A stretch of 64,000 nucleotides of DNA from Leucoraja ocellata (lineage: Eukaryota), in the NCBI GenBank assembly GCA_036785375.1, contig JAWMAR010000053.1:4402001-4466000 (forward strand). The letters are read 5' to 3'. Made by a program: the position numbers. The number at the start of each line of letters is the position of its first letter. Positions within the stretch are counted from its first letter, which is position 1. Of this stretch, positions 6,001-62,600 are shown one piece after another.

Positions 6001-9000
6001 TTTTTACATGACTGCAAAATGACCTTGCAGCGAGGATTTTCTTACTCTTATTGATGGTGTTGAACATGTGGATTTTTAGCCTTTATTGTTAGCTTGCTAC
6101 TTTATTTCAATTTTATAACTTAAAACATTACACATAGAACTGGATAATTTGAAATGAGATACAATGAATCAATGAAGGGTTCTGTTGATGACACGATAAC
6201 ATGAAAACAAGGCAAACTGAATCAACCTAGCCAGAATTTTTCCTTAAATTACAAGCAATGAATTTAAGCGTTGTAATTTTTCTTTAAAGATTGTCTTGGT
6301 GATATTAGTTCTTTCTAAATGTTTCTACCTTTGGCATCTCTTAATATTTTTGTTTAAACTTACCTTCAGAACCACCTTCATTCATAAGAAAGCCAGAACT
6401 GTCGCTGCTGTTGAAAAAAGGTGATTCAGCACATTTAAATTGCCAAGTGAAAGGTTCGCCTGAAATTAATGTTACCTGGTACAAAAACAATATGATTCTC
6501 AATTCCTCGGAAAAATACAAGATATCATTCAGTGATTCTGCAGCTGTTCTTGAGATTAATGATATAAATGTGGAAGACAGTGGGGATTATGTTTGTGAAG
6601 CACAAAATGAAGCTGGTACAGATAGCTGCAGCACTATCATTACAGTCAAAGGTTCGTACAATGTTGCTGCTGTTGAAAAATTCATATTGTTTATTTCTTT
6701 AACCTTTTTGAACAGGTAGTTTGAAATTGAATTTTGTGCCTTCCTCTTTAGAACCTCCCTCTTTTATCAAAACATTTGATCCCACTGAAGTGGTAAAAGG
6801 ATTCAATTGTACTCTTGAAAGTGAGCTGACTGGTACAACTCCATTTGAAGTTGTCTGGCACAAAGACAGAAAGCAGATCCGACCTAGTAAGAAGTACAAG
6901 ATGATTTTCCAAAATATGCGTGCTTATCTCCACATTAGCTTTTTTGAGTTCCCAGATGTTGGTGATTATCAATGCACAGTGTCTAATGAAGTAGGAAAGT
7001 GTCTATGTGGTGCAACAGTGAAGATGAAAGGTCAGTAATATTTCTGGAAATTGCAAGAAAGATATCACATTAACCTAAAATTTTTAATAAGATTCAATAG
7101 ATGGATGTATAGCATGTAAGCTGTACCTGCCTTTTAAATTAAAACCACATTATTTGTACCTTCCTTTGAAATTAGAACCCCCATCATTTGTGAAGAAAAT
7201 TGAAAATGCAACAGCAATTTTGGGAACCTCAGCAATGTTTCAATGCAGTACAAAAGGATCACTACCTATCACTTTAACTTGGATGAAAGATAAGGATGTT
7301 ATCACAGAAAGTAATAATGTCAAAATGAGTTTTGAGAACAATATTGGTACTCTTCACATTGGTACTGTTGAAATGAACTGCAGTGGAAAATACAGTTGCC
7401 ATGCAGAAAATGAAGCAGGAAGCCAAAAGTGTTTAGCAACATTAATAGTGAAAGGTCAGTTTGATAATGTATTGGTTTGTCTTATAAAACAACATGCCCT
7501 ACATTGCCAAGCGTTGTTAATGTTAACCATTTTATTTCACCTTAGAGCCAGCAAATATCATAGAGAAAGCGGAACCGATTAGTGTGACTGCTGGAGATCC
7601 AGCAACTTTGGAGTTCGTAATAGCCGGCACACCAGAACTAAAAATTAAATGGTTCAAGAATGGGAAGGAGATAATATCCAGTAGAAAGTGCAAAACAAGT
7701 TTAATAAATACAGTTGCTAGCCTAAGGATTATTTCTGCAGAAAATGAGGACAGTGGTGAATATACTTTTGAAATAAAAAATGATGTGGGGAGTTGCAGTT
7801 GTAAAACTTCCATTACAGTATCGGGTTAGTATATAATTTATAATTACTATTTTTTCAATAATTTTAGCAAATTCTTTAATTAATTCAGATATCATTGACA
7901 TGTTGCTTTGCCTTGGACAGATCGTATGATTGCCCCAACCTTCACTAAAAAATTAAGGAAAATGACCAGCATATTGGGTGCGACCTTTCACATGGATTGC
8001 AAATTCTCTGGTTCTGTCCCAGTTGGGATTTCTTGGTATAAAGATGACAAAGAGTTATCAGCCAGTGCTAAATACACAATGTCATGTCAAGACAACACCG
8101 CTGTTCTGGCGATTAAACAATTAGAAATTAAGGATGGTGGAACTTACTCGTGTAAAGCTACTAACTCTGCAGGAAGTGATGAATGCAGTGGAGTCTTAAA
8201 TGTGAAAGGTTTGAACACATAACTTAATTCTGACATTTTCTCTTTTGTCAATATGGTTTTTGTCCTTGTGCAAATAAGTTTCATTGTCATTTAAATGACA
8301 TATTCATTAATAAATATGTTGAAATTTGCCTATATTTTGGGCCATTTTTTCTTTTCTGACACCTGTTGCTGTTTGTCTGCCAAGGAAGTTTTTATGTTAT
8401 CTTTTGGTTCCTATTCGATGGTCCATAATTTCAAATGATGCTTGCCGCAGAAAATCTGTAAGCTATTCAACTAGAGCAGTTGTTCCTGCAGAGCGGTATT
8501 CTGCCATTATTCAAGAGAGACACAAAATGCTGGAGTAACTCAGTGGGGCAGGCAACATCTCTGGATAGAACAAATGGGTGACATTTCAGCTTGAGACCTT
8601 TCAGAAGGTGACCCTCCAGAGATGCTGCCTATCCCACTGAGTTACTCCAGCATTTTGTGTCTACAGTGTAAACCAGCATCTGCAGTTCCTGCCTGCCATT
8701 ATTCAATTTCCATTCATCAAATGTTAGGTATAAACACTCTCCCTCATTGTTTTGTCTAATTTCTTGCTGTGATCATAAGGATGCCACAATCACCCACCAG
8801 AGATCAGCTAGCTGACCACACATTAGCAATTGATCATTATATTTACTGGTTTGTGTTAGTTAACTATTTGGCAGATAAATCCATTAATCTATTAGGCAAA
8901 TCTATGGAATATGCCTCACTAGTGATAAAATAATATTCATTTTTTGATCCCAATTAATTGAAGGACCAGTCGACCACTCATCTCTTGCCTGCATATCTTG

Positions 9001-59600: not shown

Positions 59601-62600
59601 CTATAATATTTCATCAGGTGGCAGAGGAAAAATGGCCTGCCTCTAAAATTCCTGGCAGGTTACAAAGCTGAAGATGAAATACATTGATACTATTTTTAAA
59701 TGCAAGTAATTAAAAAGATGACAAAATTATTTTTAACTTAATCAAAAATAAAGATGTTAACTAAACACACAAAAGTATTTAGAAATAATTATAAACATAA
59801 AAATAAAGCAGATACAAAATTAAAAAGTAACACATTTCTTCCTAAAATTTTTACTTAACAATCTGCATTAAGTCTATACAGTTCTGCAGTTGGCTTGATC
59901 TTTTGTTGAATCCAAGAAGCAATTTCCCCAACTTAAATGACAGTAAGATGGAACATTAGTTGAACTGCCATTTCATTGGCGGCAGATCCAATTGAAACTA
60001 CTGTACTGACAAAAGTTAGCATGATCCAGGCCCATTAGAATTGTCTGATATTTATAATGCTACTCTTTTCTCCAACAGATCGTAAAATTCCACCAAGCTT
60101 TACTAAAAAACCTCTTGAAACAATACAGGATTCAGAAGGAAAATCTATAAAAATTGAAGCACGTGCTTCAGGTTCACAACCATTATCTGTAACCTGGTTC
60201 AAAGATGAGCAAGAGATCTTGGAAACTGGAAATTATGAATTATCCTTTAAAAATAATCTTGTCATTTTGAACATTAAGAAAGCACAGATTGTTGATTCTG
60301 GTATCTACATATGTGAAGTGGCGAATGATGCAGGCACAGCAAAGTTTAATGTGTCTGTACTGATCAAAGGTCAGTGATGGATATTCATCATTATAAGGAA
60401 TGGGGAAGTTTACACTGGCAAATTCTGTTTTGTTGAATCGTTTTTTGTTTAGTCTTGATACCATTTATTATTCTAATGTCGAATGGACATTCTTAAATCT
60501 TTGCACGTTGTTAACTTTTCTTGTACAGATTTTGTTGAAAGTCTGCCTTTTAATCAATAACGCTGTGGAAATTATATAGAAATTATATGTTGTTCATTTT
60601 TTCAGAGTTTGTGTATTGGTAAGGCCAGCATTTATGGTGCATCCCCAATGTCACTTTTTAGGTGGTGGTGAGTAATGTTCTTGAGGAACTCTAGCTAGTC
60701 TCATTCTGCCATTGACAGGGGCATCATACTATGTCATCTACTTTTTGTTGTTGGGCACTTTTCATCATTTCCTGGATAGGTCATAGAAACATAGAAAATA
60801 GGTGCAGGAGGAGGTCATTCGGCCCTTCGAGCCAGCACCGCCATTTATTGTGATCGTAGCTGATCGTCCCCAATCAATAACCCGTGCCTGCCTTCTCCCC
60901 ATATCCCTTGATTCCACTAGCCCCTAGGTCAGTAGTTGAAATTCTGTGTAGTGGATGAGTTCTAAAGGATAACATAAATGTATTGCCTGACAAAAATGCA
61001 TATATCCCTTGCATTATTGAAGGCCATTTATAATATTGAGTAACTGGCGCTAAGATGAAAAGAAAAATGGATTGTCTGGAAATGGCAAAATCTCAAGGGG
61101 AAGAGGGAATAAAAGTGATAATGAAATTTTAATGTATTAACTATTGACATTTATTTTGTTTTAGAACTGAAGAAACCACCTGTCTTTGATATTCCACTTA
61201 AACCAATGACAATAACAGAAGGAGAGTTATTGCAGCTAAAATGTCACGTTCATGGGTCGGAACCAATTAATGTCCAATGGTTCAAAGATAGGAAAGAAAT
61301 AAAACCATCTGAAAAACTGAACATGACTTTCATAGATGGCACAGCCACAGTTGAAATTAAAACAGTTGCCAAAACAGATAGTGGCGACTTCCTGTGTAAA
61401 GCCACAAATGAGGCTGGAACTGACAATTCCAAAGCCAAGCTAACAATCCAAGGTATGAATTAAATTGTTATTTGTTATGATGTGAGTGATGTATGGATGC
61501 CACAAATTTGTAAAATCATGGTTTGCTAAACATTCAACTTCTTGAACTTTTATGTATTAAGGCAAAATTGATGTTGCCTTGAGATACAGTATCTTTATTG
61601 TATTGAAAGACAAAGGAAGATTCCTCAGTCATGTAGTTTTGATCTTGATGGCTGAAACAACCAACAATCAATGGTCATATTTATGAAATGAATTCAATTC
61701 ACAAATTGAATTCATAAACTAATTGTGCCACATGTTGTCCCTTGACTTGATGATTCTAAAGAGTAATCATATATAGTCTTTATGCCGACTGGTTAGCATG
61801 CAACAAATAAACTTTTCACTGTACCTCGGTACATGTGGCAATAAACTAAACTAAACCAGATGGTGTAACTGCATAGGCCAAGACCCCTTTGCTGTTTTGT
61901 GATACCTAATAAAAAAAGAACATTGCCTCTTGCTTATAAATTCATAAAGAACTATTATGACATTATTGCATTTTTTGACCTGATTTTTAATCACAATTTG
62001 TTTTTACTTGTTGTTAGATAGCCAATGTGGTTTATTACTGAGCTAATGCATTTTATATTCTGTGTCATAGAGAAGACAGATTTATATTTAATTGTAGCTC
62101 TGTTCGTTACAAAGCTCAATATCATCACTTCTGTGTTTCAATACTTACTAAATGTTTTTCATATTGCAGCAGAAATCTTTTTTTAATTGCAATACCGAAG
62201 AATTTTATGTTCTTTTTGTTTGCTAAGCATAAAACAAAACATAACTAATTCTTGTTATGAAATGTTGATGCATATAATTTTAAAGCATGAGATATATCAT
62301 ATAAGTAATTATTAACATGTTCACAGTAGTACAATTTCATGTTCAAGTGTAATTATTTTTTATATACCTTGATGAATTATTTGTATATCGATAACTGGTG
62401 GACACATGTCGACTACACATATATATCAAAATAGATAAGAGCGCAATATTTTTGATTTGTAAAACATGGGGATAGGTCTGCCCACCACCTTCTTACAATT
62501 AATGTAATTACAATGTGTAGCTATTGTGTTGGTACAACCACAAAGACCCAATTGCCTTTCTGAATGGGAATTTATATGACTGCAAATGTAATTTTGCATA

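What the first reader, a model, noticed from the sequence alone, without database searches (positions are those of the whole stretch)
6370..61452. Alternative titin I-band spring design: (ABCDEF)x9-GH-(IJK)x3-L instead of the mammalian 3x6 + 3x10
Seen: 66 single-Ig exons fall into position classes by sequence and exon length (A 282; B, C, D, F 279; E 288 nt). Nine hexamers are followed by G, H, three IJK triplets and L, giving 69 Ig domains from I27-like to I79-like. Established (from memory): human titin has 53 domains over this span (I27, I28-29, three 6-Ig and three 10-Ig super-repeats, I78, I79), and the 10-mer is A-F plus G-H-I-J. Inference: this lineage has only one 10-mer, expanded the 6-mer instead, and carries about 16 more Ig domains. 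A single ancestral ABCDEFGHIJKL block may have been amplified independently in different vertebrate lineages.
Basis: partly seen in the sequence, partly recalled or inferred. Interest (0 to 1): 0.72.

Follow-up and report, generated by a model that had tools for sequence, protein, structure and literature searches.

The report
Shark-type titin spring with extra Ig repeats

Summary
Observation confirmed. The + strand from 6370 to 61452 holds exactly 66 single-Ig exons. All have AG/GT borders, are phase 1-1 and open, and have the stated lengths. An HMM finds no further Ig exon. Domains fall into position classes: 63 of 63 have a same-class nearest neighbour, and identity peaks at lags 6, 12, 18 and 24.

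That paper reports elephant shark as 6x6-Ig + 1x10-Ig, whale shark as 8x6 + 1x10 and human as 3x6 + 3x10, and proposes a single ancestral 10-Ig block lengthened independently.

K and L are the two C-terminal domains.

Two points appear unreported:
- I-J-K is present three times (71-81% protein identity, dS 0.25-0.47). This adds six Ig, for 69 in total.
- Hexamers 4-7 form a 12-exon higher-order repeat with alignable introns.

Copy divergence and copy-specific transposon insertions argue against an assembly artefact. Expression was not testable here. The window is not human; its closest named relative is a bamboo-shark fragment.

The parts
3..1989 (+). Long exon, open at the window's 5' end. 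About 570 aa carry no known domain; one Ig follows (1707-1982). Taken by position to be the N2B-type exon.
   Evidence: ORF. Pfam I-set at aa 578-659 only. Donor G|GT at 1989/1990, phase 1. Atlas gave no hit. The N2B label is an inference from position.
2889..3167 (+). I27-like single-Ig exon, 279 nt (first of the three N-terminal Ig).
   Evidence: I-set 1.5e-17. 43% identical to the first partial domain of the Albula fragment.
3704..4267 (+). Two-Ig exon, 564 nt (I28-I29-like).
   Evidence: Borders. Two I-set stretches. 55% identity over 175 aa to sturgeon titin fragment residues 1-175, which lie just before that fragment's first A domain.
6370..9384 (+). 6-Ig repeat 1. Exons A1 6370-6651, B1 6752-7030, C1 7176-7454, D1 7546-7824, E1 7921-8208, F1 9106-9384.
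11200..15971 (+). 6-Ig repeat 2. Exons 11200-11481, 11608-11886, 12016-12294, 14747-15025, 15136-15423, 15693-15971.
18624..23262 (+). 6-Ig repeat 3. Exons 18624-18905, 19012-19290, 19444-19722, 19832-20110, 21374-21661, 22984-23262.
23450..26836 (+). 6-Ig repeat 4. Exons 23450-23731, 23818-24096, 24255-24533, 24647-24925, 26058-26345, 26558-26836.
   Evidence: C4-F4 pair with C6-F6 (79-90% aa).
27081..31314 (+). 6-Ig repeat 5. Exons 27081-27362, 28873-29151, 29305-29583, 30096-30374, 30494-30781, 31036-31314.
   Evidence: A5-F5 pair with A7-F7 (74-83% aa).
31937..34607 (+). 6-Ig repeat 6. Exons 31937-32218, 32323-32601, 32765-33043, 33181-33459, 33805-34092, 34329-34607.
34844..38841 (+). 6-Ig repeat 7. 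Exons 34844-35125, 35850-36128, 36257-36535, 37599-37877, 38007-38294, 38563-38841.
40286..42785 (+). 6-Ig repeat 8. Exons 40286-40567, 40678-40956, 41215-41493, 41647-41925, 42038-42325, 42507-42785.
43215..49868 (+). The single 10-Ig repeat. Exons A9 43215-43496, B9 43599-43877, C9 43987-44265, D9 44383-44661, E9 44765-45052, F9 46716-46994, G 48338-48616, H 48736-49014, I1 49141-49428, J1 49581-49868.
   Evidence: H, I1, J1, A9, B9, C9 map in that order to domains 1-6 of PDB 3B43. A9 and C9 group with the bony-fish domains that precede G, and F9 lies outside the F1-F8 clade. 17 of 20 full-length bony-fish domains of this block have an h9 copy as best hit.
51438..51728 (+). K1, 291 nt: first copy of the I78-like domain (the first of the two C-terminal Ig in other species).
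   Evidence: 72.6% identical to the K-like domain of the Chiloscyllium punctatum fragment.
52701..55074 (+). Second I-J-K unit. Exons I2 52701-52988, J2 53141-53428, K2 54784-55074.
   Evidence: Protein identity to unit 1 is 77/81/79%. 82% DNA identity over 759 nt, including the I-J intron. dS 0.25-0.47, dN/dS 0.26-0.37.
58183..60369 (+). Third I-J-K unit. Exons I3 58183-58470, J3 58804-59091, K3 60079-60369.
61165..61452 (+). L, 288 nt: I79-like last domain of the segment.
   Evidence: 77.1% identical to the second domain of the Chiloscyllium fragment, which follows K there. Sister to it on the tree. No further titin exon lies between 61453 and 64000.
23498..40963 (+). 12-exon (two-hexamer) higher-order repeat. 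Copy 1 runs about 23498-32608, copy 2 about 31985-40963, and a third copy begins at A8-B8.
   Evidence: Five collinear blastn blocks that include introns, 73-81% identity, offsets 6977-8487 nt. Exon pairs C4/C6 through F5/F7 have dS 0.13-0.46, whereas A6/A8 has 0.76 and B6/B8 0.81.

Best explanation
The window is the 'middle-Ig' (differentially spliced tandem-Ig) part of the I-band spring of a cartilaginous-fish titin/connectin gene.

Its layout, in order:
- three N-terminal Ig (I27-I29-like);
- eight 6-Ig super-repeats (A-F);
- one 10-Ig super-repeat (A-J);
- the two C-terminal Ig (K = I78-like, L = I79-like).

On top of this, the block I-J-K (the last two positions of the 10-mer plus the first C-terminal domain) is present three times. 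The total is 69 Ig.

How it works. Shown here: each I-set domain is one symmetric phase 1-1 exon, so any run of exons can be skipped without breaking the frame. Inferred from the family: the folded domains in series act as an entropic spring. More domains give a longer contour and softer passive tension. Tissue-specific exon skipping sets the length.

How it arose (inferred from the pattern of copy similarity): unequal crossing-over in multi-exon blocks of 6, 12 and 3 exons. Duplicating blocks rather than single exons keeps neighbouring domains dissimilar.
For: Gene structure: 66 of 66 exons are intact and symmetric, with class-specific lengths. There is no other Ig exon. 12 of 12 exons tested are I-set.

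Period-6 classes: 63 of 63 nearest neighbours are of the same class. The lag profile peaks at 6, 12, 18 and 24. Class clades have support 87-99.

Match to mammalian titin: H, I1, J1, A9, B9 and C9 hit residues 4-95, 97-191, 195-285, 289-382, 383-475 and 477-569 of PDB 3B43, so 6 of 6 fall in the expected order. 3B43 is rabbit titin I65-I70 (PMC5766482 passages). That is positions H, I, J, A, B, C in the numbering of PMC12241362 (h58-67 and h68-77 are 10-mers).

Match to other fishes: named fragments of bony-vertebrate titin read ...A B C D E F G H I J K (L). Each domain joins the window's class of the same letter.

The ninth hexamer is the front of the 10-mer: A9 with fish, support 90; C9 with fish, 95; the F1-F8 clade, 95, excludes F9.

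Cartilaginous-fish affinity: K and L are 70-77% identical to a Chiloscyllium punctatum fragment, against 51-62% to bony vertebrates.

Published parallel: elephant shark 6x6 + 1x10, whale shark 8x6 + 1x10. In elephant shark, RT-PCR shows most of the segment spliced out in heart and kept in skeletal muscle (PMC12241362 Results).

The duplicates are real and under constraint:
- exon identity between copies is at most 92% at the DNA level;
- dS is 0.13-0.47;
- dN/dS is 0.15-0.72 in all 21 recent pairs;
- introns are alignable;
- a transposon sits in the C7-D7 intron but not in the paralogous C5-D5 intron.

Adjacent domains are only 17-44% identical.
Against: No RNA evidence was available, so inclusion of any of these exons, and of the extra I-J-K units in particular, is not shown.

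B9, D9 and E9 are not resolved with the fish 10-mer domains on the tree. In the best-hit test, 3 of 20 domains preferred a copy other than h9.

The simple 12-exon tandem-duplication model does not fit everywhere. A6/A8 and B6/B8 are much older (dS 0.76, 0.81) than the other ten pairs. B4-B7 are all about equally alike (75-83% aa). The history therefore has at least two layers, or involves gene conversion.

The species is unknown. Whether whale shark or other elasmobranchs also carry I-J-K three times could not be checked. The K tree does not decide whether the triplication came before or after the split from the bamboo-shark lineage: the K1-3 clade has support 67/80, and K3 + Chiloscyllium is not rejected (p-AU 0.38).

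The N2B label of the upstream exon is positional only.
Confidence: 0.85

Rival explanations
1. Literal reading of the finding: nine equivalent 6-Ig repeats, followed by an unrelated tail G-H-(I-J-K)x3-L. On this view the ninth hexamer is just another amplified 6-mer.
For: All nine hexamers have the same exon-length pattern. B9, D9 and E9 are unresolved within their classes.
Against: A9 and C9 group with the bony-fish domains that lie directly before G (support 90 and 95). F1-F8 form a clade (95) without F9. 17 of 20 bony-fish domains of the 10-mer front hit an h9 copy best. The published scheme treats A-J as one unit in four species.
Confidence: 0.1
2. The extra copies (hexamers 6-7, I-J-K units 2 and 3) are assembly artefacts: false duplication of one locus.
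For: Tandem repeats of 3.5-8.5 kb are a classic source of assembly error. The published whale-shark count (63) has no I-J-K triplication.
Against: The copies differ by 8-27% in exons and 18-27% across introns. Intron lengths differ: the K-I introns are 972 and 3108 nt, the J-K introns 1569, 1355 and 987 nt. A transposon is present in one copy only. dN/dS below 1 shows that the differences accumulated under selection and are not read errors.
Confidence: 0.03
3. The duplicated exons are present in the genome but are silent: never or hardly ever spliced in. The working spring would then be no longer than in other sharks.
For: Nothing here measures expression. In elephant shark one whole 6-Ig repeat (i36-41) is skipped even in skeletal muscle. 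D4 and D6 carry Cys in place of the core Trp.
Against: 66 of 66 exons keep an open frame and both splice signals. dN/dS is 0.15-0.72 in every recent pair. The invariant Gly, Asn and Gly columns are kept in 66 of 66 domains.
Confidence: 0.1
4. The I-J-K triplication is not particular to this species. It would be old and shared by many elasmobranchs, and missed in the whale-shark count because that count came from an older, fragmented scaffold.
For: The whale-shark domains were read from an unplaced scaffold of an early assembly (Methods of PMC12241362). The three K copies are hardly closer to each other (74-79%) than to the bamboo-shark K (70-73%). K3 + Chiloscyllium is not rejected (p-AU 0.38).
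Against: The bamboo-shark K is not closest to K3, the copy in the same position next to L: 71.6% against 72.6% for K1. The best tree has K1-3 together, with support 67/80.
Confidence: 0.3

Closest known systems
Whale shark (Rhincodon typus) connectin middle-Ig segment, as described by Hanashima et al. 2025 (PMC12241362)
   Same: Three N-terminal Ig, eight 6-Ig super-repeats, one 10-Ig super-repeat, then the C-terminal pair. The number of 6-Ig repeats is the same as here.
   Different: The published count is 63 Ig (w27-89), with two Ig after the 10-mer. The window has 69, because I-J-K is present three times. The sequences could not be compared here.
Elephant shark (Callorhinchus milii) connectin middle-Ig segment (same paper; cDNA LC422594 and LC422595 as cited there)
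   Same: Amplified 6-Ig repeats, a single 10-Ig repeat, one Ig per exon. Tissue-specific skipping is shown there by RT-PCR.
   Different: Six 6-Ig repeats (51 Ig) against eight here. Six is also the number the window would have without its 12-exon higher-order copy (inference).
[quoted passage not shown]
   Same: The same domain classes in the same order: H, I, J, A, B, C map one to one onto 3B43. I-set fold, with the conserved N-terminal motif and the Asn-x-x-Gly hairpin columns.
   Different: Mammals triplicated the whole 10-mer (A-J). This lineage amplified the 6-mer and triplicated only I-J-K, a unit that crosses the end of the 10-mer.
Bony-fish titin (zebrafish connectin-a, 3x6 + 1x10, in the paper; fragments from Albula, Aldrovandia, Acipenser, Scleropages and cichlids, and from Xenopus, examined here)
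   Same: A single G-H-I-J-K-L tail in the same order.
   Different: Fewer 6-Ig repeats. None of the eight fragments has I following K. One teleost fragment (Poeciliopsis) has three G-like domains and no I or J.

Membership tests
Titin/connectin differentially spliced (middle) tandem-Ig segment | Chain of I-set Ig domains, one per exon, with all exons symmetric so that they can be skipped in frame | tested here: met
   66 of 66 exons are phase 1-1 with lengths that are multiples of 3. I-set in 12 of the 12 exons given to Pfam, out of 66.
Titin/connectin differentially spliced (middle) tandem-Ig segment | Super-repeat order of domain types (6-Ig A-F, 10-Ig A-J) | tested here: met
   Lag profile, class clades, 63 of 63 nearest neighbours of the same class.
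Titin/connectin differentially spliced (middle) tandem-Ig segment | Domain-by-domain correspondence with a bona fide titin middle-Ig fragment | tested here: met
   6 of 6 exons map in order onto rabbit I65-I70, PDB 3B43. G, which has no counterpart in that fragment, scores much lower (206 bits).
Titin/connectin differentially spliced (middle) tandem-Ig segment | Location between the N2B element and the N2A element of the gene | tested here: inconclusive
   Upstream lies a long exon without known domains that ends in an Ig, followed by I27-I29-like exons. No family or Atlas match names it N2B. The exon after L lies beyond the window.
Titin/connectin differentially spliced (middle) tandem-Ig segment | Tissue-specific inclusion of the exons (N2A against N2BA isoforms) | not testable with these tools
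   No transcript data. Shown for elephant shark in PMC12241362.
Cartilaginous-fish layout of Hanashima et al. 2025 (many 6-Ig, one 10-Ig, two C-terminal Ig) | Six or more 6-Ig super-repeats | tested here: met
   Eight (h1-h8).
Cartilaginous-fish layout of Hanashima et al. 2025 (many 6-Ig, one 10-Ig, two C-terminal Ig) | Exactly one 10-Ig super-repeat | tested here: met
   G and H are single copy. h9 is tied to the fish 10-mer front in 3 of 6 classes; the other 3 are unresolved.
Cartilaginous-fish layout of Hanashima et al. 2025 (many 6-Ig, one 10-Ig, two C-terminal Ig) | Exactly two Ig after the 10-mer | tested here: not met
   After J1 come K1, I2, J2, K2, I3, J3, K3 and L: eight domains rather than two.
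Mammalian layout (3x6 + 3x10) | Whole 10-Ig super-repeat present three times | tested here: not met
   G and H occur once. Only I, J and K occur three times.

The most novel reading that the evidence does not exclude
The I-J-K triplication would be a third, lineage-specific way of lengthening the titin middle-Ig spring, beside 6-Ig amplification in cartilaginous fishes and 10-Ig triplication in mammals.

It is out of register with both super-repeats, because it joins the last two 10-mer positions to the first 'fixed' C-terminal domain. Together with the 12-exon higher-order repeat, this would mean the spring grows by recurrent unequal crossing-over at arbitrary registers. The Ig number (51, 63, 69) would then be a fast-evolving trait among cartilaginous fishes, possibly tuned to swimming mode.
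Probability: 0.45. Interest if true: 0.4.

Novelty: new variant of a known kind. Interest (0 to 1): 0.3.

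Why it matters
The number of Ig domains in series sets the resting length and softness of the titin spring. How that number changes in evolution therefore bears on muscle mechanics.

The main point is that cartilaginous fishes lengthened the spring through 6-Ig repeats while mammals did so through 10-Ig repeats. This is already published, so the window mainly adds a third cartilaginous-fish example, with the largest count so far (69 Ig).

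What it adds:
- A new unit of amplification (I-J-K), which includes a domain thought to lie outside the repeats.
- A 12-exon higher-order repeat with alignable introns, which gives a concrete route from six to eight 6-Ig repeats.
- Direct support for block-wise duplication that keeps neighbouring domains below 45% identity.

These points are of interest to titin specialists and are easy to test across the shark and ray genomes now available. They do not change the picture.

Tried and rejected
Full-length titins of other species could not be reached.
- The 'longer' mode of the homology search stops at 2000 aa. The search with I1 found nothing.
- The representative search with K1 returned 150 unnamed proteins of at most 7754 aa and 25-41% mean identity. 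The one exception was later named as a Xenopus tropicalis UniRef entry.
- One unnamed 'lgn' hit was also left alone.

As a result there is no joint tree with elephant-shark, whale-shark, gar, coelacanth, lamprey or mammalian full sets. Human numbers come from the paper only.

Other dead ends and omissions:
- I rejected the idea from the first tree that G is a derived A domain. With bony-fish G domains added, G joins them (support 89) and A becomes one clade.
- A simple single 12-exon tandem duplication was considered, but it does not fit the older A6/A8 and B6/B8 pairs.
- Rfam found nothing in the window.
- The Atlas gave no lead for the upstream long exon.
- A search for the next (N2A-side) exon after L, using the tails of the bamboo-shark and sturgeon fragments, found none in 61453-64000.
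- Supplementary files of PMC12241362 were not opened. They may hold the domain sequences or the tree that would settle the I-J-K question for whale shark.

Full report
**What is there**

The window (64,000 nt, no N, 64% A+T) carries a dense row of open reading frames of about 93-97 codons on its + strand. I searched for AG...GT borders in the right phase and tabulated the result.
- All 66 have an AG acceptor behind a pyrimidine-rich tract and a GT donor.
- All begin at codon position 2 and end at codon position 1.
- All have lengths that are multiples of three, and none has a stop.
- Lengths follow position: A 282; B, C, D, F 279; E 288 in each of nine hexamers. Then come G 279, H 279, three times I 288, J 288, K 291, and L 288.

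An HMM made from the 66 translations was run on every ORF of 25 codons or more in six frames. It finds 70 Ig hits, all on the + strand: the 66 exons plus four upstream domains. Nothing was missed, and there are no decayed copies. Pfam of 12 tested single exons I-set (I gave it 12 of the 66).

**More than chance**

Each exon was translated on its own.
- Within classes A-F identity is 39-90% (median 54%); between classes it is 17-46% (median 31%).
- The nearest neighbour is a class-mate for 63 of 63 domains that have one.
- Along the first 54 domains, mean identity is 55, 62, 55 and 54% at lags 6, 12, 18 and 24, and 30.5-34% at all other lags up to 23.
- On ML trees B, C, D, F, I, J and K are single clades with support 97-100. 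E has 93-98 and A has 87.
- The 12 labels need the minimum of 11 changes, against 47 on average for shuffled labels; 0 of 200 shuffles did as well.

**What it is**

The domains are titin middle-Ig domains. Exons H, I1, J1, A9, B9 and C9, searched one by one against the PDB, each hit chain 3b43_A best, at residues 4-95, 97-191, 195-285, 289-382, 383-475 and 477-569. That is the six domains of that structure, in order. 3B43 is rabbit titin I65-I70 (passages of PMC5766482). G has no counterpart there and scores far lower.

Homology searches with K1 and J1 returned named partial titins from Albula, Poeciliopsis, Maylandia, Acipenser, Aldrovandia, Scleropages and Xenopus tropicalis, and a 234-aa fragment from the bamboo shark Chiloscyllium punctatum. 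I cut these into domains and compared them with the window.
- They read ...A B C D E F G H I J K (L), and each domain joins the window's clade of the same letter.
- K and L are 70-77% identical to the bamboo-shark fragment, against 51-62% to the bony vertebrates. They sit next to it on the tree.
- The window is therefore from a cartilaginous fish and is not human. The species was not determined.

Upstream lie three further exons:
- a long exon with about 570 codons of domain-free sequence and one Ig (3-1989);
- an I27-like exon (2889-3167);
- a two-Ig exon (3704-4267) that matches the start of the sturgeon fragment at 55%, just before its first A domain.

Calling the long exon N2B is an inference from position (no match). 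The exon after L lies outside the window.

**Already in print**

A full-text search found Hanashima et al., Sci Rep 15:24715, 2025 (PMC12241362). I read its abstract, Results, Discussion and Methods, but not its supplements, which are closed.

The paper classifies middle-Ig domains into ten groups A-J and reports:

| Species | N-terminal Ig | 6-Ig repeats | 10-Ig repeats | C-terminal Ig | Total Ig |
|---|---|---|---|---|---|
| Elephant shark | 3 | 6 | 1 | 2 | 51 |
| Whale shark | 3 | 8 | 1 | 2 | 63 |
| Human | 3 | 3 | 3 | 2 | 53 |
| Zebrafish | 3 | 3 | 1 | 2 | 33 |

It proposes an ancestor with a single 10-Ig block that cartilaginous fishes and mammals lengthened independently. Three further searches found no other paper on the subject.

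**The window in that scheme**

The ninth hexamer is the front of the single 10-mer.
- A9 and C9 group with the fish domains that precede G (support 90 and 95).
- F1-F8 form a clade (95) that excludes F9.
- 17 of 20 full-length fish domains of that block have an h9 copy as best hit.
- B9, D9 and E9 are unresolved.

The window therefore has eight 6-Ig repeats, as published for whale shark, and one 10-mer (A9-F9, G, H, I, J). K and L are the two C-terminal domains: K is followed by L in the Maylandia, Chiloscyllium and Acipenser fragments, and non-Ig sequence comes after L in the last two.

**What is not in the paper: I-J-K three times**

After J1 come K1, I2, J2, K2, I3, J3, K3 and L.
- The copies are 71-81% identical in protein and 82-89% in exon DNA. 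dS is 0.25-0.47 and dN/dS is 0.26-0.45.
- The 152-nt I-J intron is still alignable between units 1 and 2. The long J-K and K-I introns have turned over.
- I follows K in none of the eight fragments from other species. J is followed by K in five of them and K by L in three. These are gene models and partial proteins, so this is weak evidence of absence.
- Timing is open. K1-3 form a clade with support 67/80 only, and joining K3 to the bamboo-shark K is not rejected (p-AU 0.38).

**What is not in the paper: a 12-exon higher-order repeat**

Five collinear blastn blocks that include introns link 23498-32608 to 31985-40963 at 73-81% identity. The lag-12 identity (62%) exceeds lag 6.
- The pairs C4/C6 through F5/F7 are 74-90% identical, with dS 0.13-0.46.
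- A6/A8 and B6/B8 are older (dS 0.76, 0.81), and B4-B7 are all about equally alike.
- The history therefore has more than one layer, or includes gene conversion.

Without this repeat the array would have six 6-Ig units, the elephant-shark number. That link is an inference.

**Not an artefact**

Copies differ by at least 8% in exons. Their intron lengths differ. A transposon-like ORF sits in the C7-D7 intron (36717-37238; a related copy lies at 57587-58002) but not in the paralogous C5-D5 intron. All 21 recent pairs have dN/dS below 1.

**How it most likely works**

Shown here:
- One I-set domain per symmetric exon, so any block can be skipped in frame.
- The conserved Gly, Asn and Gly columns are kept in 66 of 66 domains, and the core Trp in 64 of 66.
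- Neighbouring domains are only 17-44% identical.

From the family (abstracts listed; PMC12241362): tandem Ig segments of I-band titin extend as the sarcomere is stretched and, together with PEVK, give passive tension. In elephant shark most of the segment is spliced out in heart and kept in skeletal muscle.

Inferred:
- 69 domains give a longer, softer spring than 53 or 63, if the exons are included.
- Growth is by unequal crossing-over in blocks of 3, 6 or 12 exons.
- Block duplication keeps near-identical domains apart. The paper's Discussion cites co-aggregation of neighbours above about 70% identity.
- In the I-J-K units, domains 71-81% identical lie only three positions apart. This is the closest such spacing in the segment.

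**Verdict**

The I-J-K triplication and the 12-exon repeat are modest new variations that need cross-species and transcript checks. Interest is low to moderate.

Noticed in passing
window 7122-7191: A 33-nt tandem duplication (2.1 copies, 83% match) repeats the acceptor region of exon C1. The frame stays open through it, so the upstream AG could add 33 nt in frame.
   Followed up: no
window 24647-24925 (D4) and 33181-33459 (D6): The core tryptophan of the Ig fold, present in 64 of 66 domains, is cysteine in these two paralogous exons. Both otherwise stay intact (dN/dS 0.35).
   Followed up: partly
window 23818-24096, 28873-29151, 32323-32601, 35850-36128 (B4-B7): The four B exons are all 74-83% identical to each other, while the adjacent C4 and C5 are only 59% alike. 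This looks like gene conversion confined to the B exons.
   Followed up: partly
window 12614-13624 (minus strand): A 337-codon ORF with a reverse-transcriptase (RVT_1) match, i.e. a LINE fragment, lies in the 2452-nt C2-D2 intron.
   Followed up: partly
window 36717-37238 and 57587-58002: A transposon-like ORF with no Pfam match has two copies at 82% identity. One lies in the C7-D7 intron and is absent from the paralogous C5-D5 intron; the other lies in the K2-I3 intron.
   Followed up: partly
window 12520-12690, 27627-27796, 39152-39317, 60782-60927: A dispersed repeat of about 140-170 nt is present in four introns, all in + orientation, at 84-92% identity. Rfam has no match. It is probably a SINE or a LINE tail.
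   Followed up: no
window 46963-47990 (F9-G intron): A low-complexity stretch with (CA)37 at 47580-47653, a 50-nt tandem repeat, and a direct repeat of about 280 nt (47167-47447 and 47716-47985, 83%). Its long Pro/Thr/His-rich ORFs in three frames are not Ig exons.
   Followed up: partly
all 66 exons: Cysteines at three conserved positions (strands B, F, G as named in PMC5766482) are present in 47, 58 and 57 of 66 domains. Their absence follows class: 8 of 9 D exons lack the F-strand Cys, F1-F8 lack the B-strand Cys while F9 has it, and K1-K3 lack both the B- and G-strand Cys.
   Followed up: partly
P0002 (Poeciliopsis prolifica titin fragment), residues 646-1115: This teleost fragment reads G, H, G, G, K. 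It has three G-like domains and no I or J, so the tail of the segment also varies among bony fishes, or the transcript skips exons.
   Followed up: no
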